Part shown: piece by piece, positions 37,002-52,343 of the stretch
How positions within the stretch are numbered: position 1 is the stretch's first letter
How the letters are laid out: each line of letters opens with the position of its first letter
NCBI GenBank assembly: GCA_016207605.1
Contig: JACQPJ010000036.1
Coordinates: 1,486-65,485, forward strand
Direction: 5' to 3'
Source: Elusimicrobiota bacterium
Lineage (GTDB): Bacteria; Elusimicrobiota; Elusimicrobia; UBA1565; UBA9628
Length of the DNA stretch: 64,000 nucleotides
Program-made: the position numbers and the translations under genes
The notes under the pieces: generated by a model
What the model was told of the DNA's origin: nothing
Database searches by the model: none
The model's input: only the letters and a program-made list of their open reading frames with translations

Positions 37002-38159
37002 GTGCTCTCGGCCCTGCCGTCAAGAACGACGCCCGAACTGGACGAGCTCGCCGCCCGGGTTCTCGCGTCCTCGGCCGCGCTCGGCCGAGGCCTCCATCCC
37101 CTGATCTTGGAAGAGATCGCCCGCCTCATGGTCAAGGTCAACAGCTACTACACCAATGCCATGGAGGGCAATCCCTCCAAGCTCAAGGACATCGAGGCGG
37201 CCCTGAACAAGAAGTTCGCGAAGGACGAGACGAAACGGAATTTCCAGCGGGAGCACGTCGCTCATATCCAGGTCGAGGAGGCGATGCTCCAACGTCTAAA
37301 AGAGAACCCCTCCCCGCGCGTCTGCTCCGCGGATTTTCTTTGCTGGCTGCATAAAGAATTCTTTTTGAAACTTCCGCCGGAGCCGCGGCACGCCAAGACC
37401 GAAAGCGGCAAGCTGGTCGCCGTGGAGCCGGGCCGCCTGCGCGATCGCGGCATCACGGTCGGCCGGCATCACGGCCCGGAAACGAAAGCGGAAATCGAAG
37501 GCCACATGACCCGGTTCGAGGAGCTGCTGAGCCCCGAACGGCTGACGGGATCGCAAAAACTCCTCGGCATGGCGGCCTCCCATCACCGCTTTCTTTGGAT
37601 ACATCCCTTCCCCGAAGGCAACGGTCGCGTCGCGCGCCTGTTGACCACCGCCTACGGAATCCGGATCGGAGTCGGCGAAAACGGGCTTTGGACCGTCGCC
37701 CGCGCCTTCGCGCGCGAACGCGCGGAATACGATGGGCATCTGGCCCAAGCGGACCTGCCCCGGCGCAACGACCTCGACGGCCGAGGCCCTCTCTCCGAGG
37801 AAGGACTGATCGCGTTCTGCGCCTTCTTCCTGCGCGGATGCGCCGATCAAATCCAGTTCATGGACCGGATGCTCCGGCTTCAGGAACTCGATCGCCGCTA
37901 CAAGCGCTTTGTCGCCGGACTCGCCGCCGAAAAGCAGGTCTCAAAAGCCGGCGCGAAGGTCATGGACCGCCTTCTGCTCCAAGGCGAAGTCCCCCGCGCG
38001 CAGATTCAGGAAATCTGCGGCGTCAAGAAGCGCCGCATGACCCAGATCGCCCAGGAGCTTCTCGCCGCGCGCCTGACGCGCAGCGAATCGGCCTACGGCC
38101 CGCTGCGCCTCAATGTCTCGGCCGACATGGCCGCCGTGCTCTTCCCGGAACTGGCCTAA
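37002..38159 (+). CDS. Fic family protein (second Fic protein in the window)
   Basis: 385 aa with a GTG start. It has the Fic motif HPFPEGNGRVARLL. Confidence 0.8.
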   Translation: MLSALPSRTTPELDELAARVLASSAALGRGLHPLILEEIARLMVKVNSYYTNAMEGNPSKLKDIEAALNKKFAKDETKRNFQREHVAHIQVEEAMLQRLKENPSPRVCSADFLCWLHKEFFLKLPPEPRHAKTESGKLVAVEPGRLRDRGITVGRHHGPETKAEIEGHMTRFEELLSPERLTGSQKLLGMAASHHRFLWIHPFPEGNGRVARLLTTAYGIRIGVGENGLWTVARAFARERAEYDGHLAQADLPRRNDLDGRGPLSEEGLIAFCAFFLRGCADQIQFMDRMLRLQELDRRYKRFVAGLAAEKQVSKAGAKVMDRLLLQGEVPRAQIQEICGVKKRRMTQIAQELLAARLTRSESAYGPLRLNVSADMAAVLFPELA

Positions 38160-38692
38160 ACGCGCGGCAGCTTGGGGACGTCGCCGAGGAGCTCGGGCAT
38201 GTTCCAGATCATGTCCCGGCGGGTGTAGGCGCTCAACTCGACGTCCTGGGCGTCCATGCGGATGGCGTCGACGGGGCAGGCCTCGACGCAGTAGCCGCAG
38301 AAGACGCACAGGCCCAGGTCGATGTCGAAGGTCTTGGCGCGCTTCTCGATGCGCGGGTCGGGGGCGTCCTCGGCGGTGATGCGGATGCATTTGGCGGGGC
38401 AGATGGTCTCGCAGAGGAGGCAGGCGGTGCAGCGCGGCGCGCCGTCGCCGCGCTTGAGCAGGCGGTGGCGCGTGCGCGCGCGGCGGCCGAGGACGGCGGG
38501 GTCCTCGGGGTACTGGATGGTGACGGCCCCGGGCGCGGCGGTCTTGACGCCCAGGGCGCGCAGGGCGTGGCGGCCGAGGTTGACGAAGAGGTGGCGGAAG
38601 GTGATCGCTAAGCCGCGCCAGACCTCGAGAAGATAGATTTGGGTGCCGAACGTGCGCCGAGGACGCTCCACCGGCCGGACGGTCATCGCCAC
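38156..38692 (-). CDS. nuoI: NADH-quinone oxidoreductase subunit I
   Basis: 178 aa with two 4Fe-4S ferredoxin motifs: CTACLLCETICP and CVFCGYCVEACP. Confidence 0.9.
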   Translation of the reverse strand: MAMTVRPVERPRRTFGTQIYLLEVWRGLAITFRHLFVNLGRHALRALGVKTAAPGAVTIQYPEDPAVLGRRARTRHRLLKRGDGAPRCTACLLCETICPAKCIRITAEDAPDPRIEKRAKTFDIDLGLCVFCGYCVEACPVDAIRMDAQDVELSAYTRRDMIWNMPELLGDVPKLPRV

Positions 38693-39729
38693 AAGTAAAT
38701 CCCCCAGATGGTCGCCAGGAAGTTGAGCAAAGACAGCGGCAGAAGATTTTTCCAGCCCAAATCGAGGAGCTGATCAAAACGAAAACGCGGCAAGGTCCAA
38801 CGAATCTGCATTAAAAGAAACAACAGCAATAGGACCTTGACCGAGAATGATGCTGCCATCAGCAGGCCGCCCAGAGCGCCCATGCCCGGCAAGTTGAGAC
38901 CGGGGACGGACCAGCCGCCCAAAAATAACGCCGTGACGAGGCCGCAGATCACGATGGACTCGACGAAGTCGGTCATCAGGAACATGCCGAACTTCATGCC
39001 GGAGTATTCGACGTGGTAGCCGACGATCTCGGACTCGCCCTCGGGCAGGTCGAAGGGCGCGCGTTTGGTGGCCGCGGCGCCGGCGGTCAAAAAGAGCAGA
39101 AAAGCCAAGGGCTGGACGAAAATTCCCCACAAACCATGACGGACCTGCCAGAGAACCGCCTCTTGCAGGTCCAAGGTGCCGTACAAAAAGAGCACGCCGG
39201 CCAAGGAAGCGGCCAGGCACACCTCGTAGGCGACCATCTGCGCCGCGCCGCGCAGGGCCCCGAGCAGGCCGTAGCCGGAGCCCGAGGCGTAGCCCGCCAT
39301 CACGATTCCATGCGCGCCCAAGGCCAGGACGGCCAGGACCAGCGGCACGCCGACCGGGGAAGCGATGGGCTGGAGGTCCCACGCGCGGCCGAGCGCCGTC
39401 ACCGTCCCGCCGAAAGGCAGGGCCGCCAGGCAGAAGAGGCCTGCGCCCAGCGAGATCATGGGAGCCAGGGCGTGGAGGGTCTTGTCCGCGCCGCGGGGGA
39501 CGAAGTCCTCCTTGGTCAGCATCTTGATCGCGTCGGCGATCGGGTGGAAAAGCCCCAGGGCTCGGAAGCCGAAAATGGAGGCCCGGTTGGCGCCGATGCG
39601 GTCCTGCATCACCGCGCTCTGCTTGCGTTCCACCCAGCCGAGAAAGCCGGCGATGCCGAGGCCGAAGCCGAAGATCGCGAAGACGACCTTGGCGGCGGTC
39701 CAGGCGGCCTGGTCGAGGGCGAGGCTCAT
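38683..39729 (-). CDS. nuoH: NADH-quinone oxidoreductase subunit H
   Basis: 348 aa, polytopic. Its position and sequence pattern (..VMQDRIGANR.., EGESEIVGYHVEYSGMKF) match NuoH/ND1. Confidence 0.9.
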   Translation of the reverse strand: MSLALDQAAWTAAKVVFAIFGFGLGIAGFLGWVERKQSAVMQDRIGANRASIFGFRALGLFHPIADAIKMLTKEDFVPRGADKTLHALAPMISLGAGLFCLAALPFGGTVTALGRAWDLQPIASPVGVPLVLAVLALGAHGIVMAGYASGSGYGLLGALRGAAQMVAYEVCLAASLAGVLFLYGTLDLQEAVLWQVRHGLWGIFVQPLAFLLFLTAGAAATKRAPFDLPEGESEIVGYHVEYSGMKFGMFLMTDFVESIVICGLVTALFLGGWSVPGLNLPGMGALGGLLMAASFSVKVLLLLFLLMQIRWTLPRFRFDQLLDLGWKNLLPLSLLNFLATIWGIYLWR

Positions 39730-41246
39730 GCCGCGGCCCCTTCCCGCGAGCGAATCCCCTCCAGGGCCGCGGCCACCAAGCCGAAGATGGCCGCGTCCGG
39801 CCGCGCCGCGCCGATGGGGTCAAGGGCCCGGCGGTAGGCCTGGACCCGGCCCTCGAAGTTCGTGAAGTGACCCTCCTCCTCGACGTAGGCGGTGGCGGGC
39901 AGGCGGTAGGCATACGCATCTCCCAAAGCGCCCTTGAAGGGGCTCTGATAGACGGTCAATTCGGGCTTGGCCAAAAGCTCGGCCGCCCTGCGGCCCCAGA
40001 CGCGGTCGAGATCCCGCTCGATCACCCACAGGCCCCAGATTTTGCCGGCGGCCAGGTCCGCGGCCAGAGCGTCGAAGGAGCCGCCGCGCAGGCCCAGGGC
40101 CTCGGCGGCCTTGAGGTTGGGGACCTTCTCGCGCCGGCGCAGGAGTTCGTCCTGCTCGCCGACCTGGTCCGGGTCCGCCGCAAAGTAGAGGCGCGGGAGC
40201 TTGAGCGCGTCGACGAACAGCGCCTTGAACGCGGCCCAGTCCTCGTTGGAAAGGGCGCCGGAGGCGGCCACGGCCAGGCCCTCGGGGCCCCCGGCCGCCA
40301 GGCCCCCGCGCAGGCGGCCGGCGAGCTCCGCGGCCAGCACCTCCCAGGACAGCTCCTCGCGCGACGGCCGCAGGCGCAGGACCTTGCCCAGCCGGTTCTC
40401 ATCAAGAGACTTGTAGGAATAGCGCCCCTCGTCGCAGATCCAGTGGCCGTTGACCGCGGCGTTGTAGCGCGGCTTGAGCCGCGCCACGCGCCGCCCGCCG
40501 TTGTGCCAGGGGCGCTTGGTGCTGGTGTGCACGGAGATGCTGCAGCCGCGCGCGCAGCCGGGGCAGATCGAGTCGGTCTTGTCCAGGTACCAGACGCGGA
40601 CTTTGTAGCGGAAGTCGCGGTCGGTGAGGGCCCCGACCGGGCAGAGATCCACCACGTTGCCGGAGTAGGCGTTGTCGAGGACCTTGTCGGGCGCCAGGTC
40701 GAGGCGCTCCTCGTGCCCCCGCCCGAAGATGCCCAGCTCGTGGGTCTTGGTCACGTCATCGACGAAGCGCGTGCAGCGGGTGCAGAGGATGCAGCGCTCC
40801 TGGTCGAGCATCACGTGGGGGCCGGCCTCGACGCGCTTGCTCTTGTGCTCCTTGTCTTCGCGCGCCTGGCTCTGGTAGCGGCCGACCGTCATGTAGTAGT
40901 CCTGGAGCCCGCACTCGCCGGACTGGTCGCAGACCGGACAGTCGAGCGGGTGGTTGACCAGGTGCAGCTCCAGGGCGGAGGCCTGCGCGCGCTTGGCCGC
41001 GGGCGAGTCGGAGCGGACGTCGAGCCCCTCGCGCACGGCCAGGCGGCAGGAGACCTGGGGCTTGGGCGCGCCCGCGACCTCGACGACGCACATGCGGCAG
41101 TTGCCGGGGTTGCCCAGGGCCGGGTGGTAGCAGTAGTGCGGGATCTCGACGCCGGCGTCCTTGGCCGCGTCGATGACGAGCCGGCCCTCCTCGGCCTCGA
41201 CCGTGCGCCCGTTGAGCTGGAAGGTGACGTGCCTAGGAGTTGCCAC
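39726..41246 (-). CDS. nuoG: NADH-quinone oxidoreductase subunit G (short form, 506 aa)
   Basis: The N-terminus has the 2Fe-2S and 4Fe-4S cluster motifs: CYHPALGNPGNCRMCVVEV, HPLDCPVCDQSGECGLQD, CILCTRCTRF. The C-terminal molybdopterin-like region is much shorter than in E. coli NuoG. Confidence 0.85.
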   Translation of the reverse strand: MATPRHVTFQLNGRTVEAEEGRLVIDAAKDAGVEIPHYCYHPALGNPGNCRMCVVEVAGAPKPQVSCRLAVREGLDVRSDSPAAKRAQASALELHLVNHPLDCPVCDQSGECGLQDYYMTVGRYQSQAREDKEHKSKRVEAGPHVMLDQERCILCTRCTRFVDDVTKTHELGIFGRGHEERLDLAPDKVLDNAYSGNVVDLCPVGALTDRDFRYKVRVWYLDKTDSICPGCARGCSISVHTSTKRPWHNGGRRVARLKPRYNAAVNGHWICDEGRYSYKSLDENRLGKVLRLRPSREELSWEVLAAELAGRLRGGLAAGGPEGLAVAASGALSNEDWAAFKALFVDALKLPRLYFAADPDQVGEQDELLRRREKVPNLKAAEALGLRGGSFDALAADLAAGKIWGLWVIERDLDRVWGRRAAELLAKPELTVYQSPFKGALGDAYAYRLPATAYVEEEGHFTNFEGRVQAYRRALDPIGAARPDAAIFGLVAAALEGIRSREGAAA

Positions 41247-42462
41247 GAGGGATTTTCGCCTTGAAGTCGTCGGGGAACTTGCCCAGCCAGGCGCGCGCGA
41301 CCACGCCCACGGTGTCGCCCAGCGCGCAGATGACCTTGCCCGTGATGTTCTCGCCCACGCGCTTGAGGTTGTCCAGGTCCTCCGGGACGCCCCCGCCGCG
41401 GAGCAGGCGCTCCAGAATGCGCTCCAGCCAGGCCGCGCCCTCGCGGCAGGGCGTGCACTGGCCGCAGGACTCGTGGGAGAGGAAGCGCTCGATGTTGTGG
41501 GCGACCGCGACCGCGTCGGCGCTCTCGTCGAGCACGATCATGCCGCCCGCCCCCAGGAAAGTGCCGGCCGCGCGCACCGCGTCGAAATCAAGCGCGACGT
41601 CGAGGTCCTTCTCCACCAGCGGCGGCATCGAGGTGCCCCCCGGGATCACGGCCTTGAGCCGCCTGCCCCCGCGCACGCCGCCCGCCAGGGCGAGCACGTC
41701 GCGCAGCTTGGAGCCCATCGGCACTTCATACACGCCCGGCTTCTCGACGTGCCCCGAAACGGAGAAGAGGACCGTGCCGCCGTTGCGGGCCGAACCGATC
41801 TTGGCGAAAACCTCGCCGCCCTCGCGCAGGATGAACGGAAGCATGGATAATGTCTCGACGTTGTTGACCACCGTGGGTTTGCCCATGAGGCCGGCGACCG
41901 TGGGAAAGGGCGGCGGCTGACGGGGCCAGGCCTTCTTGCCTTCCATCGTCTCCAGCAGGGCGGTGTCGAGCCCGGAGATGTAGGCCCCCGCGCCGCGCAT
42001 CAGCGAGATCGAGGCGGCCTTCGTCCAGCCGGCGGCGTCGGCCTCTTGGACGGCCTTTTCCAGAATGTCGTATTGGTTCTGATACTCGCCGCGCAGGAAA
42101 ATGAAGGTCTCCTTGGCGCCGACGGCGTGCGCCGCGATCAGCAGGCCCTCGAGGAGCTGGTGCGGCGCGCGCGTCAGCAGGACGCGGTCCTTGAAGCACC
42201 CGGGCTCCGACTCGTCGGCGTTGACGACCACGTAGCGCGGCCCGGGGACCTTGTCCTCCGGCGGCACCGTCTCCCACTTCATGCCCACGGGGAATCCCGC
42301 GCCGCCCAGGCCCCGCAGGTTGGACTTCTTGACCTCGGCCGTGACCGCGGCGGGCGCCATGGCGCGCGCCTTCTGAAGAGCCTCGTAGCCGCCCAGCCGG
42401 CGGTAGGTCTCCAGCTCGTGGAGGCGAGGCTCGTCGAAGTGTTTGGTGAGAATTTTAGTCAT
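41233..42462 (-). CDS. nuoF: NADH-quinone oxidoreductase subunit F
   Basis: 409 aa. Motifs: GLGGAGFPVGMKW, the NADH/FMN site motifs, and ESCGQCTPCREG for the 4Fe-4S cluster. Confidence 0.9.
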   Translation of the reverse strand: MTKILTKHFDEPRLHELETYRRLGGYEALQKARAMAPAAVTAEVKKSNLRGLGGAGFPVGMKWETVPPEDKVPGPRYVVVNADESEPGCFKDRVLLTRAPHQLLEGLLIAAHAVGAKETFIFLRGEYQNQYDILEKAVQEADAAGWTKAASISLMRGAGAYISGLDTALLETMEGKKAWPRQPPPFPTVAGLMGKPTVVNNVETLSMLPFILREGGEVFAKIGSARNGGTVLFSVSGHVEKPGVYEVPMGSKLRDVLALAGGVRGGRRLKAVIPGGTSMPPLVEKDLDVALDFDAVRAAGTFLGAGGMIVLDESADAVAVAHNIERFLSHESCGQCTPCREGAAWLERILERLLRGGGVPEDLDNLKRVGENITGKVICALGDTVGVVARAWLGKFPDDFKAKIPRGNS

Positions 42463-42949
42463 GCCGCTCCTCCGCCAGCGTGGCGATCATTTTTTCCGTC
42501 GCCGCGCCTTTCAAGCGGTCATTGACCTGGAGGGCGGGGGCCTGCTCGCAGGCGCCCAGGCATTCCATCGGCTCCCAAGAGAACTTTCCGTCGGGGGTGA
42601 CCGCGCGGGCCTTGACCCCGAGCGTCTTCTCCAGGCAAGCCTCCATCGCGTCGGAGCCGGCCAGCCAGCAGGACAGGCCGCGGCACGAACCAATGCGATA
42701 TTTTCCGACCGGCTTCATCGTAAATGCCGGGAAAAACGTCGCCACGCCCCAGACATGGCTGAAGGGCATGTGAAATATTTCGGCGACGCGGGATGCCGTC
42801 TCGGGAGAGATCATGCGGTGCCAGTCCTGAACCGAGCGCAGCGCCTCGACCAGGCCCATGTTCGGGTAGGGATAGCGCGTCGTCCACTCCGTCAAGATTT
42901 TCTCCTGCTCGGGCGAAAACGGCGATTTCACGGGAGCCTGGGCGCTCAT
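42455..42949 (-). CDS. nuoE: NADH-quinone oxidoreductase subunit E
   Basis: The track ORF 42455..44083 is trimmed to Met-379. The product is 164 aa with thioredoxin-like 2Fe-2S motifs CRGLSC and CLGACEQAP. Confidence 0.9.
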   Translation of the reverse strand: MSAQAPVKSPFSPEQEKILTEWTTRYPYPNMGLVEALRSVQDWHRMISPETASRVAEIFHMPFSHVWGVATFFPAFTMKPVGKYRIGSCRGLSCWLAGSDAMEACLEKTLGVKARAVTPDGKFSWEPMECLGACEQAPALQVNDRLKGAATEKMIATLAEERHD

Positions 42950-45359: not shown

Positions 45360-45382
45360 CGTGCCGGCCGGCGCGGCGTCCT

Positions 45383-45751
45383 CTAGCTGCACTCGAGAAC
45401 TCCCTTGCGCCAGAAGTAGGCGAGCATGAACAGGACCAAGACGGTGAAGACCGTCGCCGCGGCCAGGCCGGCGGCGTCGAAGGCCGGACGGTTGAGCGCC
45501 CAAGGCAGCAGGAAGGCCAGGTCCACGTCGAAGACCACGAAGAGCACGGCGAAGCGGTGATACAGGGCCGTCATCGGCTCGTGCGCGGGCGCCAGCGGCG
45601 GCAGGCCCGTCTCGTAGGGCATGTCCGCGTCGCCCTCGCGGCGGCCGGCCGGCCCGAAGAGGCGGCCGGCCGCCGCGAAGAAGCCGGTGAGCGCCAGCAC
45701 CGCCAGCAGGTTGACGCCTAAGCCCAGCAGGGCGAGCGCGCTCACGGCCAA
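45383..45751 (-). CDS. nuoA: NADH-quinone oxidoreductase subunit A
   Basis: 122 aa with three TM helices and YETGLPP..FDVDLAFLLPWA, typical of NuoA/ND3. Its start overlaps the 3' end of nuoN by 10 nt. Confidence 0.85.
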   Translation of the reverse strand: MAVSALALLGLGVNLLAVLALTGFFAAAGRLFGPAGRREGDADMPYETGLPPLAPAHEPMTALYHRFAVLFVVFDVDLAFLLPWALNRPAFDAAGLAAATVFTVLVLFMLAYFWRKGVLECS

Positions 45752-47139
45752 AGCCCCCCGATGAAGAGCGGCGCCGCGCCCAGCAGAACCGCGCCCAGCG
45801 CGCCCACCGCGAGCACGGCCGCCGCCTGGACGCTGTCAGGATTTCCGTCGCCGCGTCCGTGCCGCGTCCGCAGGATCGCGGCCTCGGGCGAGGCGGCGCG
45901 GCCCGCCGGCTCCGGGACGGGCTCCTCGAAATACAGGTCGCGCATGAGGCCCAGGTAGTAGCCCAGCGAGATCAGGGCCGCCAGCGCGCCGAAGAGGACG
46001 GGCGCGGCCAGCTCCGCGCGCACGGCCTGCCAAAAGACCAGGAGCTTGGCCAGGAAGCCGCCCGTGGGCGGCACGCCCGCCAAGGCGAAGAGGAGCACGG
46101 TCATGGCCAGGGCCTCCCGCGGCCGCCGCGCCGCCAGGCCGCGCAGGTCCGCGCGCGAGCGCGCGCCGGTCGCGCCCAGGAAGGCGAAGGCGCCGTTGCT
46201 CATGAAAACGTAGGCGACGAGGTAGAAGAGCAGCGCGGCCGCGGCCCCGGGGTCGCGGCCCAGGCGCTCCCAGGCGCCCACGCCCAGCACCAGGAAGCCC
46301 GCGTGCGCCAAGGACGAGCAGGCGAGCAGGCGCTGGAGCTTCTCCTGGCGCAGGGCCAGGACCGCGCCGACCAGGGCGGTGAGCGCGCCCGCAGCCGGCA
46401 GCCAGGCCGCGAAGGCGGGGGCGGGAGAAAGCTCGACGACGCGCATCAAAAAGAGGACGGCCGCGGCCTTGACGGCGGTGGACAGGAAACCCGCCACCTC
46501 CGGGGCGCAGGCCTCGTAGACGTCGGGCAGCCACCAGTGCAGGGGCACGGCGCCGATCTTGAACAGGGCGGCCGCGGCCATGAGCGCCAAGCCCCCCTGG
46601 CCCAGCGCTCCCGGCGCGGACGCCGCGGGGCCCAGCGTCCCCGCGTCGGCGTAATAGAGCGCCAGGCCGAACAGGAACAGCGCCCCGGCGAGGGCTCCCG
46701 AAAAGAAGTACTTGACCGCGGCCTCCAGCCGCCGCCCGGCCGCGCCCGGCTCGCCCACGCGCGCCACGAGCAGGTAGGCGGGGAGGGACATGAACTCCAG
46801 GCCCAGAAAGAGCATGGGCAGGTTCGCCGCGGCGCAGAGCAGGCCGATGCCCAGCGTCGTCCCGAGGAACAGCGCCGTCTCCACGTCGTCGCCCGAGGAG
46901 CGCAGGGCCAGGGGCAGGGCGGCGAGGTAGGCCGCGAACTGCCAGCCCAGGCCCTTGAGGTCCGCGGCGAAGAGCGGCGGCCGCGCGGCCGGAGACGCCA
47001 GGGTCAGCAAGAGGAGGGCGGCCAGCGGCGCGGCCAGGGCGAGGGCGCGCGCGAGCGCGGGGGACGGGCGGCGCAGGAGGCCCAAGCCCAGGGCGCCCAA
47101 GGTCCCCGCCGCCAGCGCGGCCTGCGGCAGGAGGCTCAT
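45742..47139 (-). CDS. nuoN: NADH-quinone oxidoreductase subunit N
   Basis: The track ORF 45742..48573 is trimmed to MSLLPQAALAAG. The product is 465 aa and antiporter-like (LEFMSLPAYLLV, KYFFSGALAGALFLFG, LFKIGAVPLHWWLPDVYE). Confidence 0.85.
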   Translation of the reverse strand: MSLLPQAALAAGTLGALGLGLLRRPSPALARALALAAPLAALLLLTLASPAARPPLFAADLKGLGWQFAAYLAALPLALRSSGDDVETALFLGTTLGIGLLCAAANLPMLFLGLEFMSLPAYLLVARVGEPGAAGRRLEAAVKYFFSGALAGALFLFGLALYYADAGTLGPAASAPGALGQGGLALMAAAALFKIGAVPLHWWLPDVYEACAPEVAGFLSTAVKAAAVLFLMRVVELSPAPAFAAWLPAAGALTALVGAVLALRQEKLQRLLACSSLAHAGFLVLGVGAWERLGRDPGAAAALLFYLVAYVFMSNGAFAFLGATGARSRADLRGLAARRPREALAMTVLLFALAGVPPTGGFLAKLLVFWQAVRAELAAPVLFGALAALISLGYYLGLMRDLYFEEPVPEPAGRAASPEAAILRTRHGRGDGNPDSVQAAAVLAVGALGAVLLGAAPLFIGGLWP

Positions 47140-48593
47140 CGCACCAGCCCCCGGAGCGACGGCTCCAGAAACGCGACCCAGCCCGCCGGGGCCAGGCCGA
47201 TCCAGAGCATCAGGCCGCAGAGCAGCCAGAGAATCGCCTTTTCGCGGGCGTCGAGATCGGCCACGAACGCGCTGGCCGAGCCCGGCCCCGCCGGAGCCCA
47301 GAACACGGCCTGGTAGGCGGGCAGGGCGTAGGCCGCGGACAGCGTCACGCCCAGCACGCCGGCCGCCGCGAAGACGGGCGGGGCGGAGCGCGCGATGCCG
47401 GCCAGGCACAAGAACTCGCCGACGAAGCCGTTCAAGCCCGGCAGGCCGATCGAGGCCAGCGTCGCGAAGCCGAAGAAGAAGGACAGCCAGGGCGCGCGAA
47501 CGGCCAACTCGCCGAAATCGGAGAGCCCGCGCCGGTGCGCGCGCTGGTAGAGGAAGCCGACGAGCAGGAACAGCGCGCCGGTGGTCAGGCCGTGGTTGAT
47601 CATCTGCAGGGCGCTTCCAGCCAGGCCCTGGCTCGTGCCGGAGGCCGCGCCGAAAAGGCAGAAGCCCATATGCGCGATCGAGGAATAGGCGATGAGGCGC
47701 TTGAGGTCGGCCTGGGCCATCGCGCAGAGCGCCCCGTAGATCGCGTTGACCGCGGCCAGGGCCGCCAGGGTGGGCGCCCACGCCGCCGTCAGGCCCGGCA
47801 TCAGCGGGAAAGAGACGCGCAGGAGCCCGTAGAGGCCCATTTTGAGCATCACGCCGGCCAGCATCACCGAGCCCGCGGCCGGGGCCTCGGTGTGCGCGTC
47901 CGCAAGCCATGAGTGCAGGGGCACGATGGGAATCTTGACGCCAAAGCCAAGCAGAAGCCCCAGAAAGACCCAGGGCGCGGCCGGGCCCAGCGGCGTCCCC
48001 TTCAAGGACTCCAGGTCCCAGGTCCACTCCCCCGAGGCCGCGTGGCGCGCCGTGACCAGGGCGAGCAGGGCCAGCAGCATGAGCAGCGAGCCCGCGAACG
48101 TGAACAGGAAGAACTTCACGGCCGCGCGGCGGCGGTTCTCCGAACCCCAGAGGCCGATGAGGAAGAACATCGGGACCAACGTCGCTTCCCAGAAGACGTA
48201 GAAAAGGAACAAGTCGCGGGCCAGGAAGACGCCCGTCGCCGCCGAGGCCAGCGCCAGGAAGCAGGCCCAATAGCCGGCCGAGACGTCGAGCGTCCAGGAC
48301 GCGGCGACGCAGACCAGCGTCAGGAAGGCGGTCAGCGCGATCAGGGACAGCGAGAGGCCGTCGGCCGCCAGCCGATAGGAGATTCCGAACGCCCAGGTCC
48401 GCCCTCCCTCGGCGAAGACGGCCGCTCCCCCCGCCGCCAGGCAGGGCAGAAGGGCGAGCAGGGCGGCGGCCAGGAAGCTCGCCGCGGCCGCGAGCGCGCA
48501 GAGGCGGGCGGCCCCGCGGCCCAGGCGGCCCGCCAGCAGGCAGGCCCCGGCGCCGGCCAGCGGCAGGACCCACAAGGTCGTCAAGGGGCTCAT
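47136..48593 (-). CDS. nuoM: NADH-quinone oxidoreductase subunit M
   Basis: The track ORF is trimmed to MSPLTTLWVLPL. The product is 485 aa with FYVFWEATLVPMFFLIGLWG, KIPIVPLHSWLADAHTEAPAAGSVMLAG and SIAHMGF. Confidence 0.85.
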   Translation of the reverse strand: MSPLTTLWVLPLAGAGACLLAGRLGRGAARLCALAAAASFLAAALLALLPCLAAGGAAVFAEGGRTWAFGISYRLAADGLSLSLIALTAFLTLVCVAASWTLDVSAGYWACFLALASAATGVFLARDLFLFYVFWEATLVPMFFLIGLWGSENRRRAAVKFFLFTFAGSLLMLLALLALVTARHAASGEWTWDLESLKGTPLGPAAPWVFLGLLLGFGVKIPIVPLHSWLADAHTEAPAAGSVMLAGVMLKMGLYGLLRVSFPLMPGLTAAWAPTLAALAAVNAIYGALCAMAQADLKRLIAYSSIAHMGFCLFGAASGTSQGLAGSALQMINHGLTTGALFLLVGFLYQRAHRRGLSDFGELAVRAPWLSFFFGFATLASIGLPGLNGFVGEFLCLAGIARSAPPVFAAAGVLGVTLSAAYALPAYQAVFWAPAGPGSASAFVADLDAREKAILWLLCGLMLWIGLAPAGWVAFLEPSLRGLVR

Positions 48594-50491
48594 CGCAGGG
48601 CCCCCGCCAAGAGAACCGCCGCGCCCGCGGTCATCCACCAGAGGTAGTCGTTGAGGCGCCCGTCGGCGGCGCGGGCGGCCAGGCCGCCGGCGCCGCGCGC
48701 GGCCGCGGCGCCGGACTCGAGCAGGCCGTCCCACCAGGCCCGGTCCAGGACGCGTCCGACGAAGCCCGCCAACGCGGCGACGGCGGCGGCCAGCCGGGCC
48801 ATCAGCGTCGTCCAGCCGAAGTCGGACGCCAGGACGGCCTCGGCGCGTCCGCCGCGCCAGCGCCAGTCCCAGCCCGGGTCGGCCATGGTCAGACGGTAGG
48901 CCGCGGCGGCGCCCGCCGCCGCGAAGGCCGCGCTGAGCAGGGCGGTCGTCCACGAGAAGGCGGGCAGGGCGGGGTCTCCGGGAAGGTTGAGGACCAAGTC
49001 GCCGCCGAGGCGGCCCACGGGGAGGCCGCGCAGGCCGGAGAACACGAGACGGGAACCGGTCGGGCCCAAGGCGCCCGCCGCCGCCGCGCCCAGCGCCAGG
49101 AACAGCGGCGGCGCCGCCAGGCCGGGCCCGGCCTCGTGGGGATGGGCGGCCAGGCCCTTCTGCTCCGGGCGCGCCCCATGGAAGGTGAGCAGGAGCATGC
49201 GAAAGATGTAGAAGGCCGAGCCGGCGCAAACGAGCAGGGCCGCCGCCGCCAGGAGGCCGCCGCGCTCCCAGGCCGCGTCCACGATCGCGTCCTTGCTGAA
49301 GAACCCGGCCAGAGGCCAAACGCCGGCCAGGGACAGCGCCGCGACGACGAAGGACGCGTAGGTCAGAGGCATCGCGCGGCCCCAGCCGCCGACCTCGTCC
49401 ACGCTCGCGGTGGGCTGGCGGAGCGCGTGGGCCACGTTGCCCGCGCACAGGAACAGCGCCGCCTTGAAGAAGCCGTGCACGACCAGGTGGAAGATCGCCG
49501 CGCCCACGCGGCCCAGGCCCAGGGCCAGCATCATCAAGCCGAGGTGGCTGACCGTGGAGTAGGCGAGGATGCGCTTCAGATCCTTCCTCGTCCCCGCGAT
49601 CAGCGCCGCAGCCAGCGCGGTGAAGGCGCCGATCCAGGCGACGACGACGGGCAGGCCCGGCACCGCCGCGATCAGGGGCCAGGAGCGCACGAGGAGGAAC
49701 ACGCCCGCCGTGACCATCGTGGCGGCGTGCATGAGGGCCGAGGTCGGCGTGGGGCCCTCCATGGCGTCGGGAAGCCAAAAGTAGAGCGGCCACTGCGCGG
49801 ACTTGGCGCAGGCGGCCCAAATCAGCAGGCCCGCGATCACGGGCAGCATCTCGTGCCGGCCGGCGGCGACGAGCAGGTAGAGCAAGTGGAAGCGCGCGAC
49901 CTTGTAGCGCGCCAGCAGCAGCAGCAGGGCGAGCAGGAAGCCGAAGTCGCCGACGCGGTTGACCAGGAAGGCCTGCAGGGCGGCCCGGCGCGCCGACGCC
50001 TTGTGGAACCAGTGGCCCACCAGCAGGTAGGAGGCCAGGCCCACGAGCTCCCAGAACAAGTAGAGCTGGACGTAGTTGTTGGCCGTAAGCAGGCCGATCA
50101 TCGCGAGGAAAAAGAGATGGAAGACGAGAAAAAAGCGCGAGAAACCCGGATCGCCCTTCATGTAGCCGGCCGCGTAGAGATGGATGAGCGAGCCCACCAC
50201 CGCCACCATCGCGAGCACGGCCGCGCCCGGGCCGTCCACGCGCAGGCCGAAGTCCACGCCCCAGCCCTCGACCGCCGCCCAGCGCCAAACGTTGACGTCG
50301 AAGCTGCGGCCCGCCAGGACCTGGCCGGCCAGGGACAGGCTGGCCGCGGTCACGACCGCGCACGAGAGCAGGATGGGCCAATGCGTCTTCTCGGGCGCCA
50401 GGGGACGCATGAGGAAGAAGCCGATCAGCAGCGCGGCGACGGGGGCGGCGAAGAGGAGCCAGGCCTCGAGCGGGACGGCGACATGGCTCAT
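48590..50491 (-). CDS. nuoL: NADH-quinone oxidoreductase subunit L
   Basis: The track ORF is trimmed to MSHVAVPLEAW. The product is 633 aa with IHLYAAGYMKGDPGFSRFF, FWELVGLASYLLVGHW, KSAQWPLYFWLPDAMEGPTPTSALMHAATMVTAGV. Confidence 0.85.
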   Translation of the reverse strand: MSHVAVPLEAWLLFAAPVAALLIGFFLMRPLAPEKTHWPILLSCAVVTAASLSLAGQVLAGRSFDVNVWRWAAVEGWGVDFGLRVDGPGAAVLAMVAVVGSLIHLYAAGYMKGDPGFSRFFLVFHLFFLAMIGLLTANNYVQLYLFWELVGLASYLLVGHWFHKASARRAALQAFLVNRVGDFGFLLALLLLLARYKVARFHLLYLLVAAGRHEMLPVIAGLLIWAACAKSAQWPLYFWLPDAMEGPTPTSALMHAATMVTAGVFLLVRSWPLIAAVPGLPVVVAWIGAFTALAAALIAGTRKDLKRILAYSTVSHLGLMMLALGLGRVGAAIFHLVVHGFFKAALFLCAGNVAHALRQPTASVDEVGGWGRAMPLTYASFVVAALSLAGVWPLAGFFSKDAIVDAAWERGGLLAAAALLVCAGSAFYIFRMLLLTFHGARPEQKGLAAHPHEAGPGLAAPPLFLALGAAAAGALGPTGSRLVFSGLRGLPVGRLGGDLVLNLPGDPALPAFSWTTALLSAAFAAAGAAAAYRLTMADPGWDWRWRGGRAEAVLASDFGWTTLMARLAAAVAALAGFVGRVLDRAWWDGLLESGAAAARGAGGLAARAADGRLNDYLWWMTAGAAVLLAGALR

Positions 50492-50790
50492 CCGCGCAGC
50501 TCCGACATGGCCCCGGCGTCCAAGCCGCGGCCGGCGCGAAAAGCCCTGAGGATCAGCGAGAGGCCCACGACCGCCTCGGCCGCCGCGACCGCCAGGATCA
50601 GCGCGACCGCGGCCTGGGCCTGCGCGTCGGCGCGCAGTCCCGCCTGCCGCACGACGGCGAGGTTGGCCGCGGCCAGCATGAGCTCGACGCCGAGGAACAT
50701 CGCCAGCAGGCCGCGGCGCAGAACGAGCATGGCCAGGCCCAGGGCAAAGAGCGTCCCCGCGATCGTCCACACCGCCGAACTGATGGTCAA
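50488..50790 (-). CDS. nuoK: NADH-quinone oxidoreductase subunit K
   Basis: Tail of the track ORF 50488..52467. A TTG start overlaps the nuoJ stop (TTGA). The product is 100 aa with RRGLLAMFLGVELMLAAANL, typical of NuoK. Confidence 0.8.
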   Translation of the reverse strand: MTISSAVWTIAGTLFALGLAMLVLRRGLLAMFLGVELMLAAANLAVVRQAGLRADAQAQAAVALILAVAAAEAVVGLSLILRAFRAGRGLDAGAMSELRG

Positions 50791-51269
50791 GTCCCCTCCC
50801 GATCGGGAAGGACCGCCAGCGCGGCCAGGAACATGAGCAGGGCGGCCGCCTCGACGGCCGGCGCGTAGGAGCCGAAGAGGACCGAGGCGAAGGCGGCCGG
50901 AGCGGCGGCCGCGAGGGCGGGCTCGGGGCGCGCCGGCGCCGCGCGCAGGATCAGGGCGGCCTCCGCCGCGGCCCCGGCCAGGCCCAGGAAGGCCACCCAG
51001 CGCGGAAACCCGAAGCGGGCGAAGCGCTCCTCCGGAGCGCCGCCCGCGGCCATGATCGTCACCACGGCCAGGACCATGACCGCCCCGGCGCAGATCATGA
51101 CCTGCAGGAGTCCCAGCAGGGGCGCGCCGCAAAGAAGGAAGAGGACGCCCGTCTGCAGGAGCGCGCCCAGCAGGCACACGGCGCTGACGTAGAGGGAGCG
51201 GTGCAGGAGCATCACGGCGGCGCAGAGCACGGCGGCGGCGCCGGCCAGAAGAACGGCCCAAAGCGTCAT
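50787..51269 (-). CDS. nuoJ: NADH-quinone oxidoreductase subunit J
   Basis: 160 aa and hydrophobic. Position and pattern (SLYVSAVCLLGALLQTGVLFLLCGAPLLGLLQVMICAGAVMVL) match NuoJ/ND6. Confidence 0.8.
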   Translation of the reverse strand: MTLWAVLLAGAAAVLCAAVMLLHRSLYVSAVCLLGALLQTGVLFLLCGAPLLGLLQVMICAGAVMVLAVVTIMAAGGAPEERFARFGFPRWVAFLGLAGAAAEAALILRAAPARPEPALAAAAPAAFASVLFGSYAPAVEAAALLMFLAALAVLPDREGT

Positions 51270-51278
51270 TTGGGGATT

Positions 51279-52343
51279 TTACTTTTTTAGCGCGGCGTCG
51301 ACAAAATCCGCGGCCTCCTGCAGAACCGCGGGCTCCGACACCTTGAGCCCCCAAAGCACGAGCACGCTCAACAAGGAGGGAGCCACGTAATAACAGAGCC
51401 GGAACAGCATCGCCGCCACCAGCGCCGCGCCGGGCTCCACGCCCAGGCCGCTCATCAAGGCCGTGATCGAGCCCTCGGCCGCGCCCAGCCCGCCGGGAAG
51501 CAGGGGGATCAAAGTCGCCGCCTGGCCGGTCGTGAAGGCGGCGCTCAAATGGCCGACCGGGAGCAGGACCCCGGCGGCGCGGAAGCAGAGCCACAGGGAG
51601 GTCATGGCCAGCCCCCAGTCCAGGCAGGTGTAGAGCACCGTCGCCGTCACTCGGCCCCGGCCAGCCCGGATGCGGGCCAGACCCTGCGTGAGTTGGACCT
51701 CGAAAGCGGCGAAGTCCTCGGGCGGGATCTCGCGCTGGGACAGGGAATAGGCGGCGAGGTTGGTCAGGCGGAAAAGCCGGTGCGCGAGGCGGCCGCGCAC
51801 GCGGCGGCTGAAAAAGGCCGCCAGGAGCACGCCGGAGGCGGCCAGCAGAAAGAGCAGGCCCAAGCCGCTCTCCAGGACGGCCCAATGCGCCCCGTTGCGG
51901 AACAGAAGCAGCGTCACGAAGCCCTGGGCCAGGATCATGGCCAGGACGGCGTAGAGGATCGCGGAGGTCACGGCCGAGGCCGTGACGGTCGTGGCGATGG
52001 GCACGCGCCTTTTGTGCAGAAGATGCGCCTTGAGCGCGAAGCCGGTCACGCCGCCCGCGGAAACGAGATAGTTGGCCGTGTTGGAGACGAGCGCGATGCC
52101 CAGCACCGCGGGCCCCTCCACCGAATGGCCGAGCAGGGCCAGCGTCTCGGAGAGAGCCAGGCCCGCCATGGCGTGGCTGGCCAGAGCGCAGGCCAGCGAG
52201 ACCAAAACCCAGGACCAGGTCACGGCCTCGCCCGCGCGGCGCACCTCGTCGAGCCGCGCGCCGACCAGGACGGCGAGGAGGGCCAGCGCCCCCAAGGCGC
52301 CCAGGCTCAAGAACGCGCCGCGCCGCCCCTTGAACCGTCCCAT
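51279..52343 (-). CDS. flippase-like / lysylphosphatidylglycerol-synthase TM-domain family (UPF0104) membrane protein, first gene of the nuo transcription unit
   Basis: 354 aa with about 8 TM helices and the motif LLPGGLGAAEGS, typical of this family. It ends 9 nt before nuoJ. Confidence 0.65.
   Translation of the reverse strand: MGRFKGRRGAFLSLGALGALALLAVLVGARLDEVRRAGEAVTWSWVLVSLACALASHAMAGLALSETLALLGHSVEGPAVLGIALVSNTANYLVSAGGVTGFALKAHLLHKRRVPIATTVTASAVTSAILYAVLAMILAQGFVTLLLFRNGAHWAVLESGLGLLFLLAASGVLLAAFFSRRVRGRLAHRLFRLTNLAAYSLSQREIPPEDFAAFEVQLTQGLARIRAGRGRVTATVLYTCLDWGLAMTSLWLCFRAAGVLLPVGHLSAAFTTGQAATLIPLLPGGLGAAEGSITALMSGLGVEPGAALVAAMLFRLCYYVAPSLLSVLVLWGLKVSEPAVLQEAADFVDAALKK

What the first reader, a model, noticed from the sequence alone, without database searches (positions are those of the whole stretch)
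38156..52343. Complete nuo operon in circularly permuted order J-K-L-M-N-A-B-C-D-E-F-G-H-I, led by a flippase-like membrane protein gene
- After trimming read-through ORFs I could assign all 14 subunits.
- On the minus strand they run nuoJ (51269) to nuoK, L, M, N, then nuoA (45751), B, C, D, E, F, G, H and I (ends 38156).
- Almost every junction is a 4-10-nt overlap, including N/A (45742-45751), so the order is not an assembly artefact of separate operons.
- The canonical bacterial order is A through N. Here the membrane-arm block J-N has moved in front of A.
- A UPF0104/LPG-synthase-TM-type gene ends 9 nt upstream of nuoJ and appears to be the first cistron.
Basis: partly seen in the sequence, partly recalled or inferred. 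Interest (0 to 1): 0.6.

Follow-up and report, generated by a model that had tools for sequence, protein, structure and literature searches.

The report
Complex I operon, membrane-arm genes first
This groundwater Elusimicrobia genome encodes a complete, ordinary-looking 14-subunit respiratory complex I whose genes run nuoJ-N then nuoA-I; the order is real and fixed across the lineage, but it matches the published "green complex I" layout, so it is a modest variant and not a new system.

Summary
All 14 nuo genes lie on the minus strand in the order J-K-L-M-N-A-B-C-D-E-F-G-H-I (51269 to 38156). Twelve of the 13 junctions overlap by 4-14 nt.

- **Fixed in the lineage.** The order is not an artefact: 30 of 30 N-to-A junctions and every sampled whole or partial operon show it, across four GTDB families of Elusimicrobia.
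- **Not unprecedented.** J-N before A is the published hallmark of "green complex I". I verified that layout on Sinorhizobium meliloti pSymA and in Acidobacteriota, Planctomycetota and Acidimicrobiia.
- **Not a green complex I.** This operon has one canonical NuoL, not two Mrp-type subunits. Its M and N fall outside the green clade, and an AU test rejects a shared clade with green-type operons.
- **Likely origin.** Its wider clade is marked by a 48-aa NuoD insertion and a short NuoG. Members often keep A-I and J-N as separate operons. The best reading is that the two blocks were joined N-to-A in this lineage, probably independently of the green type.
- **The flippase-like gene.** It is probably not the first cistron. 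A conserved -10 element sits 6-11 nt before the nuoJ ATG in relatives, and the gene is linked to nuo only in part of one family.

No transcript data could be obtained. Interest is low to moderate.

The parts
51276..51304 (-). Promoter-like site for the nuo operon: TTGTCG, 17 nt, TAAAAT. The -10 hexamer overlaps the TAA stop of the upstream gene and ends 6 nt before the nuoJ ATG. There is no Shine-Dalgarno sequence.
   Evidence: Consensus scan; sequence. An equivalent TAnAAT element lies 6-11 nt before the nuoJ start in relatives, often with TTGGAC or TTTACC at 17-18 nt. It is found in 11 of 18 loci at nuoJ against 0-2 of 18 at any other nuo gene. The transcription start itself is inferred, not shown.
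50787..51269 (-). nuoJ (160 aa), the first gene of the operon
   Evidence: Pfam Oxidored_q3, 62.7 bits. Start ATG 51269.
50488..50790 (-). nuoK (100 aa); overlaps nuoJ by 4 nt
   Evidence: Pfam Oxidored_q2. NCBIfam NuoK NF004320, 63.5 bits against a cut-off of 57. GGGAGGGG lies upstream of the TTG start.
48590..50491 (-). nuoL (633 aa), a single canonical NuoL with its C-terminal part; overlaps nuoK by 4 nt
   Evidence: Pfam Proton_antipo_N and Proton_antipo_M. TIGR01974 at 491.7 bits, residues 11-629 on model positions 4-627 of 630. Full-length alignment to T. thermophilus Nqo12 4he8_L; best PDB hit is M. smegmatis NuoL. Falls in the NuoL clade with 100/100 support, not with the Mrp-type X or Y subunits.
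47136..48593 (-). nuoM (485 aa); overlaps nuoL by 4 nt
   Evidence: TIGR01972 at 484.8 bits against a cut-off of 263.8.
45742..47139 (-). nuoN (465 aa), divergent; overlaps nuoM by 4 nt
   Evidence: Pfam Proton_antipo_M. Best NCBIfam match is TIGR01770 NuoN at 239 bits, below the cut-off of 332.6. Falls in the NuoN clade in the tree.
45383..45751 (-). nuoA (122 aa from TTG 45751, or 120 aa from GTG 45745); overlaps the nuoN stop by 10 or 4 nt. This is the new junction.
   Evidence: Pfam Oxidored_q4, 69.9 bits. The junction overlaps or leaves at most 13 nt in 21 of 21 loci of the clade.
44916..45392 (-). nuoB (158 aa)
   Evidence: Pfam Oxidored_q6. AAGGGAG lies before the GTG start.
44431..44919 (-). 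nuoC (162 aa)
   Evidence: Pfam Complex1_30kDa.
44290..44430 (-). 141-nt AT-rich spacer between nuoC and nuoD. It is a copy of a dispersed palindromic repeat and carries a 36-codon mini-ORF. It is the only non-overlapping junction in the operon.
   Evidence: Sequence and genome-wide blastn. Partial copies lie on contigs C25, C22 (near 77.7 kb), C11, C9, C43 and others.
42946..44289 (-). nuoD (447 aa) with a 48-aa insertion at residues 293-340
   Evidence: Pfam Complex1_49kDa. NF004739 at 453 bits. Insertion seen in the alignments.
42455..42949 (-). nuoE (164 aa)
   Evidence: Pfam 2Fe-2S_thioredx.
41233..42462 (-). nuoF (409 aa)
   Evidence: Pfam Complex1_51K, SLBB and NADH_4Fe-4S.
39726..41246 (-). 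nuoG, short form (506 aa)
   Evidence: Pfam Fer2_4, NADH-G_4Fe-4S_3, Fer4_Nqo3 and a remnant of the molybdopterin domain. TIGR01973 matches only its N-terminal 330 of 606 positions.
38683..39729 (-). nuoH (348 aa)
   Evidence: Pfam NADHdh, 315 bits.
38156..38692 (-). nuoI (178 aa), the last gene. Its stop overlaps by 4 nt the end of a convergent Fic-domain gene (37002-38159, plus strand).
   Evidence: Pfam Fer4 families. TIGR01971 at 113.1 bits. Fic domain of the convergent gene.
51279..52343 (-). Neighbouring gene for a stand-alone flippase-like membrane protein (LPG_synthase_TM / UPF0104, 354 aa). It is a frequent neighbour in family f1 and probably not part of the nuo transcript proper.
   Evidence: Pfam PF03706 at 104 bits. 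TIGR00374 at 68 bits. Variable linkage in relatives.

Best explanation
**What it is.** The region encodes a complete NADH:quinone oxidoreductase (complex I) of ordinary 14-subunit composition: NuoA-N with one canonical NuoL and an NADH-oxidising NuoEFG module. It is organised as one translationally coupled operon that starts at nuoJ and ends at nuoI.

**Shown.**
- The subunit identities are as stated.
- The genes overlap at 12 of the 13 junctions.
- The order is fixed across an order-level Elusimicrobia clade.
- The operon belongs to a cross-phylum complex I clade marked by a 48-aa NuoD insertion and a short NuoG.
- In that clade the A-I block and the J-N block occur in four arrangements: as separate operons, in canonical order, convergent, or J-N first.
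- The Mrp-type "green complex I" has the same J-N-first order but forms a different branch.

**Inferred.**
- In the ancestor of this Elusimicrobia clade, a separately encoded nuoJKLMN operon became joined upstream of nuoABCDEFGHI. The stop of nuoN came to overlap the start of nuoA.
- This happened independently of the junction in green complex I.
- Transcription starts at a conserved promoter whose -10 lies 6-11 nt before the nuoJ ATG, giving a leaderless or near-leaderless message. Ribosomes then pass from gene to gene through the overlaps.
- The enzyme works as normal complex I, passing electrons from NADH through FMN and the Fe-S chain to quinone and pumping protons through L, M, N and the H/A/J/K channel.
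- It works beside the genome's second, 11-subunit, NuoEFG-less complex. The gene order itself is probably neutral for function.
For: - **Subunit identities:**. L is a canonical NuoL.
- **Quinone site:** the His and Tyr of NuoD (HPAMHG and DRLNY) align with the same residues in solved enzymes.
- **Overlapping junctions:**
- **Order conserved:** 30 of 30 junction loci. The 20 operon loci from families f1, f2, f3 and f11 show the same order as far as their contigs reach. Elusimicrobia families f5 and f6 have the canonical A-N order.
- **NuoD insertion:** shared with family f8 and with Acidobacteriota, Planctomycetota, Omnitrophota, Rokubacteria, Aminicenantes, Nitrospirota and others. The clade has SH-aLRT support of 96.
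- **Separate blocks:** in those genomes A-I often stands alone. Stand-alone J-K-L-M-N blocks with a canonical NuoL lie elsewhere in the same genomes. In one Aminicenantes chromosome the block is about 20 kb away on the other strand.
- **Green-type operons are one separate clade:** this holds for M+N (100/99, including S. meliloti) and for D+H+F+B. There they are sister to a Planctomycetia A-I operon. The AU test rejects ours plus green as one clade (lnL difference 168).
- **Junction anatomy differs:** N/A overlaps or leaves at most 13 nt in 21 of 21 of our clade, against 28-1392 nt gaps in 12 of 12 green-type loci.
- **Promoter:**
- **Second operon:** a Nuo11 operon is present in the same genome and in most relatives.
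Against: - The single transcript, the start site and the leaderless start are all inferred from sequence.
- With few taxa, the D+H+I+F tree placed our clade as sister to the green-type family f8 (97/95). This dissolved only with wider sampling.
- The deep forks of the wider tree are poorly resolved: they are open forks, and one search is a quick tree.
- The AU test group was named after a tree had been seen, and the test used LG+G4.
- Our M and N sit on a very long branch (stem 1.39), so their origin is unresolved. A single origin of the order followed by replacement of the membrane-arm genes cannot be excluded.
- I found no extant close sister with split blocks that would pin down the ancestral state for this particular clade.
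- The promoter match in the window itself is only 9 of 12. The scan found 2 such sites in 15.5 kb against 0.8 expected by chance.
Confidence: 0.62

Rival explanations
1. Derived green complex I. The J-N-first order arose once, in the common ancestor of this clade and the Mrp-type green complex I. This lineage later replaced the X-s-Y module (two MrpD-like subunits plus a small subunit), or the whole membrane-arm block, with canonical NuoL, M and N.
For: - The gene order is the same as in green complex I.
- Both carry the NuoD insertion and a short NuoG.
- A green-type operon exists inside the same bacterial class, in family f8.
- With few taxa, f8 was sister to our clade.
Against: - With wider sampling, the green-type operons are sister to a Planctomycetia A-I operon and nest among Omnitrophota and Nitrospirota operons that are not J-N first.
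- The AU test rejects ours plus green as one clade.
- L, M and N of our clade are outside the green clade.
- The N/A junction is built differently: an overlap here, a spacer there.
- S. meliloti green complex I lacks the NuoD insertion.
Confidence: 0.2
2. True circular permutation inside the lineage. A canonical A-N operon was duplicated in tandem (A-N-A-N), and the outer A-I and J-N copies were then lost, leaving J-N-A-I.
For: - The result is an exact cyclic permutation with a tight N/A junction.
- Sister Elusimicrobia families f5 and f6 have canonical A-N operons.
Against: - No intermediate and no remnant of duplicated nuo genes flanks the operon in any of about 50 loci.
- The f5 and f6 operons lack the NuoD insertion and branch outside the insertion clade, so they are not the parent operon.
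- Split A-I and J-N operons are common among the real relatives. These offer a simpler route.
Confidence: 0.1
3. The flippase-like gene is the true first cistron and an accessory factor of this complex I, for example handling lipids for membrane-arm assembly. It would be co-transcribed with nuoJ-I.
For: - It lies on the same strand, with only 9 nt between its stop and the nuoJ ATG.
- An ortholog lies directly, or within about 1-2 kb, upstream of nuoJ in at least 16 genomes of several genera of family f1.
- Read-through from its promoter cannot be excluded.
Against: - It is absent from the genome in three same-genus relatives (G006, G010 and G022) that keep the operon.
- It lies on other large contigs in genera g16 and g18.
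- It is not upstream of nuoJ in families f2, f3, f11 or f8, where unrelated genes, some on the other strand, precede nuoJ.
- The conserved -10 and -35 lie immediately before nuoJ both where the gene is adjacent and where about 1 kb intervenes.
- A hairpin followed by a weak T-run lies in its 3' end.
Confidence: 0.15
4. Assembly or binning artefact: two separate operons were joined by mis-assembly of a metagenome-assembled genome.
For: The genome is a fragmented metagenome-assembled genome: 60 contigs and 75% complete.
Against: - The same junction appears in 30 of 30 independent assemblies, including genomes of 1-3 contigs.
- The reading frames overlap at the junction.
Confidence: 0.01

Closest known systems
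Green complex I (Degli Esposti & Martinez-Romero 2016, FEMS Microbiol Ecol 92:fiw084, as described in PMC7415380 and PMC9040806). Example: S. meliloti pSymA, CP140953.1.
   Same: - The gene order is the same: nuoJ, K, the L function, M and N precede nuoA-G, all on one strand.
- It is a full NADH-oxidising enzyme with NuoEFG.
- It coexists with a second complex I in the same genome.
- The non-rhizobial green-type operons also share the NuoD insertion and short NuoG.
   Different: - In green complex I, NuoL is replaced by two MrpD-like subunits plus a small protein of about 85 aa. Here there is one canonical 633-aa NuoL.
- M and N are not in the green clade.
- The Q and N modules are not monophyletic with the green type.
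- The N/A junction overlaps here but is a spacer of 28-1392 nt there.
- On pSymA, nuoH and nuoI are inverted; here they follow nuoG.
- pSymA NuoD lacks the insertion and is only 39% identical.
Canonical 14-subunit bacterial complex I (nuoA-N / nqo1-14; solved for T. thermophilus 4hea and M. smegmatis 8e9g)
   Same: - All 14 core subunits are separate genes.
- There is one NuoL with its C-terminal part.
- The FMN and Fe-S domains are present.
- The quinone-site His and Tyr of NuoD are conserved.
   Different: - The gene order is J-N then A-I.
- NuoD carries a 48-aa insertion that is absent from every solved structure.
- NuoG is about 100-400 aa shorter than these forms.
- NuoN is divergent.
Split complex I loci with separate nuoA-I and nuoJ-N operons. 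Seen here in Aminicenantes, Zixibacteria, Rokubacteria, Acidobacteriota and Planctomycetia. Split nuo clusters are noted as common in PMC12361115.
   Same: - They belong to the same NuoD-insertion clade.
- They have the same two blocks with the same breakpoint between nuoI and nuoJ.
- Their stand-alone J-N blocks carry a canonical NuoL.
   Different: Here the two blocks are fused into one overlap-coupled operon, with J-N upstream.
[quoted passage not shown]
   Same: It is present in the same genome, on contigs C40 and C47, in the canonical order A-B-C-D-H-I-(J)-K-L-M-N. It shares 32-49% identity per subunit with the operon studied here.
   Different: - It has no NADH-oxidising module.
- Its gene order is canonical.
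- Its NuoD has no insertion.

The cited paper calls the 14-subunit enzyme of lineage IV "canonical" and does not mention its gene order.

Membership tests
Canonical 14-subunit complex I (NDH-1, Nuo14) | All 14 core subunits NuoA-N are encoded | tested here: met
   Pfam; NCBIfam. NuoN, NuoJ and NuoA score below the NCBIfam equivalog cut-offs but pass the Pfam gathering scores.
Canonical 14-subunit complex I (NDH-1, Nuo14) | A single NuoL that includes the C-terminal segment forming the lateral helix | tested here: met
   TIGR01974 aligned over residues 11-629 of 633. Full-length alignment to Nqo12 4he8_L. Falls in the NuoL clade with 100/100 support.
Canonical 14-subunit complex I (NDH-1, Nuo14) | NADH-oxidising N-module: NuoE, NuoF with the FMN/NADH domain, and NuoG with its Fe-S domains | tested here: met
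   2Fe-2S_thioredx; Complex1_51K and NADH_4Fe-4S; Fer2_4, NADH-G_4Fe-4S_3 and Fer4_Nqo3.
Canonical 14-subunit complex I (NDH-1, Nuo14) | Quinone-site His and Tyr of NuoD (His38 and Tyr87 in T. thermophilus numbering, from established knowledge) | tested here: met
   HPAMHG and DRLNY align with HPAAHG and DRLDY of a solved 49-kDa subunit. They are invariant in the clade.
Canonical 14-subunit complex I (NDH-1, Nuo14) | Operon order nuoA to nuoN. This is a feature of the locus, not of the enzyme. | tested here: not met
   The order is J-K-L-M-N-A-B-C-D-E-F-G-H-I.
Canonical 14-subunit complex I (NDH-1, Nuo14) | NADH:quinone oxidoreductase activity coupled to proton pumping | not testable with these tools
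   The organism is uncultured. This would need biochemistry.
Green complex I | Rearranged gene order with nuoJ-N ahead of nuoA | tested here: met
   Same order as S. meliloti pSymA and as 12 green-type loci from other phyla.
Green complex I | NuoL replaced by two MrpD-like subunits, with a small subunit between them (PMC9040806) | tested here: not met
   There is one 633-aa NuoL. No X, s or Y homolog is present.
Green complex I | Membrane-arm subunits M and N belong to the green clade | tested here: not met
   All X-s-Y operons, including S. meliloti, form one clade (100/99). Our clade lies outside it.
Green complex I | Q- and N-module subunits form one clade with the green-type operons | tested here: not met
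   Trees. The AU test rejects the joint clade (lnL difference 168). Caveats: the group was named after a tree had been seen, and the model was LG+G4.
NuoD-insertion / short-NuoG complex I clade (unnamed, cross-phylum) | An insertion of about 48 aa in NuoD after the equivalent of residue 292 | tested here: met
   Alignments. Shared motif D.GK.G...A..D.TLEG.
NuoD-insertion / short-NuoG complex I clade (unnamed, cross-phylum) | Short NuoG of about 490-590 aa | tested here: met
   506 aa here; 505-587 aa in clade members.
NuoD-insertion / short-NuoG complex I clade (unnamed, cross-phylum) | Phylogenetic placement inside the clade | tested here: met
   D+H+F+B tree: a 52-row clade with SH-aLRT support of 96.
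Flippase-like LPG_synthase_TM / UPF0104 (the upstream gene) | Matches the family model above its cut-off; no aminoacyl-PG synthase domain | tested here: met
   PF03706 at 104 bits (cut-off 33.4). TIGR00374 at 68 bits (cut-off 43.2). Only the transmembrane part of MprF matches.

The most novel reading that the evidence does not exclude
The J-N-first order has been reached at least twice independently. One case is the Mrp-type green complex I. The other is this canonical-NuoL enzyme of Elusimicrobia. Each has then been kept unchanged over order-to-phylum-scale divergence, here with a conserved leaderless-type start at nuoJ and a compacted N/A overlap. That would point to selection for making the distal membrane arm first, for example for co-translational membrane-arm assembly or for subunit dosage. 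It would be a natural counter-example to the view, taken from E. coli operon shuffling (Oppermann et al. 2022, cited in PMC12361115), that nuo gene order does not matter.
Probability: 0.2. Interest if true: 0.55.

Novelty: new variant of a known kind. Interest (0 to 1): 0.3.

Why it matters
It matters modestly.

- **Annotation.** Gene order alone does not diagnose "green complex I". The same order occurs with a fully canonical subunit set, so annotators should check the NuoL module before naming the type. Méheust et al. (bioRxiv 10.1101/765248) call the Elusimicrobia lineage IV enzyme "canonical" without noting its order.
- **Evolution of complex I.** Complex I behaves as two portable gene blocks, A-I and J-N, with a recurrent breakpoint between nuoI and nuoJ. 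These blocks are found separate, convergent, in canonical order or J-N first within one enzyme clade.
- **A natural experiment.** If the two J-N-first lineages are truly independent, they offer a test of whether operon order affects complex I assembly.
- **Structure.** The clade-wide 48-aa NuoD insertion has no counterpart in any solved structure and could be a target for structural work.

Tried and rejected
- **Literature.**
  - Searches for nuoJKLMN/nuoABCDEFGHI strings and for gene-order terms found no description of this order with a canonical NuoL.
  - The original green complex I paper is not held. I relied on two papers that describe it and on the pSymA record itself.
  - The 2025 HMM survey of complex I (PMC12361115) classifies clusters as split or single but does not report order.
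- **A misleading first tree.** The 25-taxon tree suggested that our clade is sister to the green-type family f8, which would mean a derived green complex I. Wider sampling overturned this, and I rejected that reading as the primary one.
- **Mrp/Mbx identity of J-N.** It is rejected by NCBIfam and the PDB searches.
- **Membrane arm copied from the genome's own Nuo11 operon.** Rejected: identities are only 34-45%, and the genes fall in different clades.
- **Assembly artefact.** Rejected.
- **The hairpin at 51331-51308 as a conserved terminator.** Its palindrome is not kept in same-genus relatives, so I give it little weight.
- **Limits of my gene calls.** Gene starts in relatives were set from tblastn hits, so overlaps and gaps of a few nt are approximate. 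The "FE" labels show only that the E and F hits share a frame; a NuoE-F fusion was not verified.

Full report
**1. The observation**

The window is GC-rich (about 69%). It belongs to a 1.44-Mb, 60-contig metagenome-assembled genome that is about 75% complete. Read-through ORFs are therefore common.

In order of transcription they are:
- an LPG_synthase_TM protein
- NuoJ (Oxidored_q3) and NuoK (Oxidored_q2)
- three Proton_antipo_M proteins, the first also carrying Proton_antipo_N
- NuoA (Oxidored_q4), NuoB (Oxidored_q6), NuoC (30 kDa) and NuoD (49 kDa)
- NuoE (2Fe-2S thioredoxin-like) and NuoF (51 kDa FMN domain)
- NuoG (Fe-S domains), NuoH (NADHdh) and NuoI (2x4Fe-4S)

NCBIfam names the three antiporter-like proteins:
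- L matches TIGR01974 at 491.7 bits, over its full length.
- M matches TIGR01972 at 484.8 bits.
- N has TIGR01770 as its best match but scores below that model's cut-off.

The best solved relatives of L are the NuoL subunits of M. smegmatis and T. thermophilus, not Mrp subunits.

After trimming starts, 12 of the 13 nuo-nuo junctions overlap by 4-14 nt, including N/A at 45742-45751. The one exception is a 141-nt spacer between nuoC and nuoD.

**2. It is a lineage trait, not an accident**

- A search with NuoA in 40 relatives found an ortholog in nearly all of them, together with a more distant paralog.
- All 30 fetched loci show M-N-A-B-C-D: 24 from the same genus and 6 from two other families of the order.
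- A phylum-wide NuoF search was followed by 18-kb fetches. These show J-K-L-M-N-A-B-C-D-E-F-G-H-I in every sampled member of families f1, f2, f3 and f11, as far as the contigs reach.
- Elusimicrobia families f5 and f6 have the canonical A-to-N order.
- Record titles of close hits name groundwater Elusimicrobia metagenome-assembled genomes.
- The genome also holds a second, 11-subunit operon without nuoEFG, in canonical order. It is split over the ends of contigs C40 and C47.
- This matches Méheust et al. (bioRxiv 10.1101/765248). They report that lineage IV Elusimicrobia have both an N-module-less complex I and a "canonical" one. They do not mention gene order.

**3. The order is already known from another enzyme type**

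Earlier notes of this scan pointed to "green complex I". Two papers describe it as having a "peculiar rearrangement of gene order" and two MrpD-like subunits in place of NuoL (PMC7415380; PMC9040806).

I checked this on the S. meliloti pSymA record. The order there is J, K, MrpD-like (487 aa), an 84-aa protein, MrpD-like (586 aa), M, N, A, B, C, D, E, F, G. H and I are inverted.

Elusimicrobia family f8 has the same split-L layout.

**4. This operon is not a green complex I**

- In a tree of antiporter-like subunits, our L falls in the canonical NuoL clade with 100/100 support. Both Mrp-type subunits of f8 pair with those of S. meliloti.
- In an M+N tree, all green-type operons form one clade (100/99). 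This holds for S. meliloti, f8, Acidobacteriota, Acidimicrobiia and Planctomycetota. Our clade is a separate, very long branch.

**5. The wider family and the likely origin**

NuoD of our clade and of f8 carries a 48-aa insertion. It is absent from f5, f6, S. meliloti and the genome's own Nuo11 NuoD. It is also absent from every solved complex I.

A scan of one genome per species with an alignment of such NuoDs returned 80 loci from many phyla. I annotated their gene order. Among insertion-bearing operons I found four layouts:

| layout | where found |
|---|---|
| J-K-X-s-Y-M-N-A...I (green type) | Acidobacteriota, Acidimicrobiia, Planctomycetota |
| A...I alone | Omnitrophota, Aminicenantes, Acidobacteriota, Zixibacteria; many Rokubacteria/Methylomirabilota loci show A...I followed only by nuoK (and nuoJ in one) |
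| Canonical A...I-K-L-M | Nitrospirota |
| J-K-L-M-N-A...I with one NuoL | Elusimicrobia only |

In eight genomes with A-I alone I searched for NuoM. Stand-alone J-K-L-M-N blocks with a canonical NuoL lie elsewhere in those genomes. In one Aminicenantes chromosome the block is about 20 kb away on the other strand. In one Planctomycetia genome it is convergent on nuoI.

The enzyme's genes therefore behave as two blocks with a recurrent breakpoint between nuoI and nuoJ.

In D+H+F+B trees, the green-type clade is sister to a Planctomycetia A-I operon and nests among Omnitrophota and Nitrospirota. Our clade branches separately. An AU test rejects ours plus green as one clade (lnL difference 168).

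The junctions also differ. N/A overlaps or leaves at most 13 nt in 21 of 21 loci of our clade. It is a 28-1392-nt spacer in 12 of 12 green-type loci.

I therefore favour an independent end-to-end joining of a J-N operon upstream of an A-I operon in the ancestor of this Elusimicrobia clade. There are four caveats:
- A small tree first gave the opposite answer.
- The deep forks are weakly resolved.
- The AU group was chosen after a tree had been seen.
- The M and N branch is long.

**6. Where the operon starts**

The consensus scan found one promoter-like site at the 5' end: TTGTCG, 17 nt, TAAAAT at 51304-51276. The -10 hexamer contains the TAA stop of the flippase-like gene and ends 6 nt before the nuoJ ATG. 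There is no Shine-Dalgarno sequence.

In relatives the same place holds TTGGAC or TTTACC, then 17-18 nt, then TAGAAT, TACAAT or TAAAAT, 6-11 nt before the ATG. This holds both where the flippase gene is adjacent and where about 1 kb of other sequence intervenes.

A -10-like hexamer at that distance occurs in 11 of 18 loci before nuoJ. It occurs in 0-2 of 18 before any other nuo gene, and in 0 of 18 before nuoA. The 25 nt before nuoJ are 59% A+T, against 29-47% elsewhere.

This argues for a promoter at nuoJ, a leaderless or near-leaderless first gene, and no separate start at nuoA. All of this is inferred.

**7. The flippase-like gene**

It is a stand-alone LPG_synthase_TM / TIGR00374 protein. 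Orthologs exist in 55 of 61 genomes of family f1. I compared their positions with those of nuoF and nuoJ:

| position of the ortholog | genomes |
|---|---|
| Directly upstream of nuoJ | about 9 |
| About 1 kb upstream | 6 |
| 2-12 kb away on the same contig | about 6 |
| On other large contigs | genera g16 and g18 |
| Absent from the genome | 3 same-genus genomes that keep the operon |

In families f2, f3, f11 and f8, unrelated genes precede nuoJ, some on the other strand. The gene is thus a frequent neighbour within one family and not a conserved first cistron. Some read-through cannot be excluded.

**8. How it most likely works**

By composition this is a normal proton-pumping NADH:quinone oxidoreductase.
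- NADH is oxidised at NuoF.
- Electrons pass through the Fe-S clusters of E, F, G, I and B to quinone at the D/B/H site. The His and Tyr of NuoD are conserved.
- L, M and N, and the A/J/K/H channel, pump protons.
- It works beside the Nuo11 enzyme of the same cell.
- Expression is from one promoter. Overlapping stops and starts couple translation from J through I.

Nothing suggests that the order changes the enzyme. E. coli work cited in PMC12361115 (Oppermann et al. 2022) reports that nuo order is not essential for assembly. I could not read that paper, so I cite only its title.

**9. Verdict**

It is a lineage-wide layout that copies the order already published for green complex I. It arises in an enzyme clade where the two gene blocks are commonly shuffled.

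What appears undescribed is the combination of that order with a canonical single NuoL, and its probable independent origin. I rate it a new variant of a known kind, with interest of about 0.3.

Noticed in passing
window 44290-44430 (minus strand): The only non-overlapping nuo junction, between nuoC and nuoD, is an AT-rich copy of a dispersed palindromic repeat (AACCACAAAGACACAAAG ... CTTCGTGTCTTTGTGGTT). It carries a 36-codon mini-ORF ending 8 nt before the nuoD ATG. Partial copies lie on contigs C25, C22 (near 77.7 kb), C11, C9, C43, C46 and others. Some same-genus relatives have no spacer at this junction.
   Followed up: partly
window 43270-43413 (NuoD residues 293-340): A 48-aa insertion in NuoD with the conserved motif D.GK.G...A..D.TLEG. 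It is shared with operons of many phyla and is absent from every solved complex I structure. Its position in the fold and its role are unknown.
   Followed up: partly
L035 6800-14870 (relative G297, family f1): An 8-kb island lies between nuoE and nuoF on the same strand as the operon. It encodes a DNA methylase (N6_N4_Mtase), an AAA_21 ATPase, a weak DUF4276 match and a ResIII helicase/nuclease. It looks like a restriction/defence island inside a complex I operon.
   Followed up: partly
genome contigs C40:12479-13247 and C47:23995-33450: A second, 11-subunit complex I operon without nuoEFG, in canonical order. It is cut at a contig end inside nuoB, so C40 and C47 are probably adjacent. Most relatives also carry two nuoA genes.
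   Followed up: partly
window 45742-48593 (nuoN and nuoM) and relatives: The M and N subunits of this clade sit on a very long stem (1.39 substitutions per site). NuoN scores below the NCBIfam cut-off. The membrane arm is evolving much faster than the Q and N modules.
   Followed up: no
L073 and L075 (families f2 and f3), and green-type loci L079-L094: The NuoE and NuoF tblastn hits fall in one open frame, which may mean a fused NuoEF. In the window the two genes are separate and overlap by 8 nt. The fusion was not verified.
   Followed up: no
L053 1-1023 (family f8): An electron-transfer-flavoprotein alpha-like gene lies directly upstream of nuoJ, on the same strand, in the green-type Elusimicrobia operon. 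I recognised it from the sequence and ran no family search.
   Followed up: no
window 37002-38159 (plus strand): A Fic-domain gene converges on the operon and overlaps the nuoI stop codon by 4 nt. No terminator-like hairpin lies between the two genes.
   Followed up: no
window 52362-52604: A long palindromic non-coding stretch lies between the CHASE2 adenylate cyclase gene (52618-54855) and the flippase-like gene (sequence). It is already listed as a separate finding of this scan.
   Followed up: no
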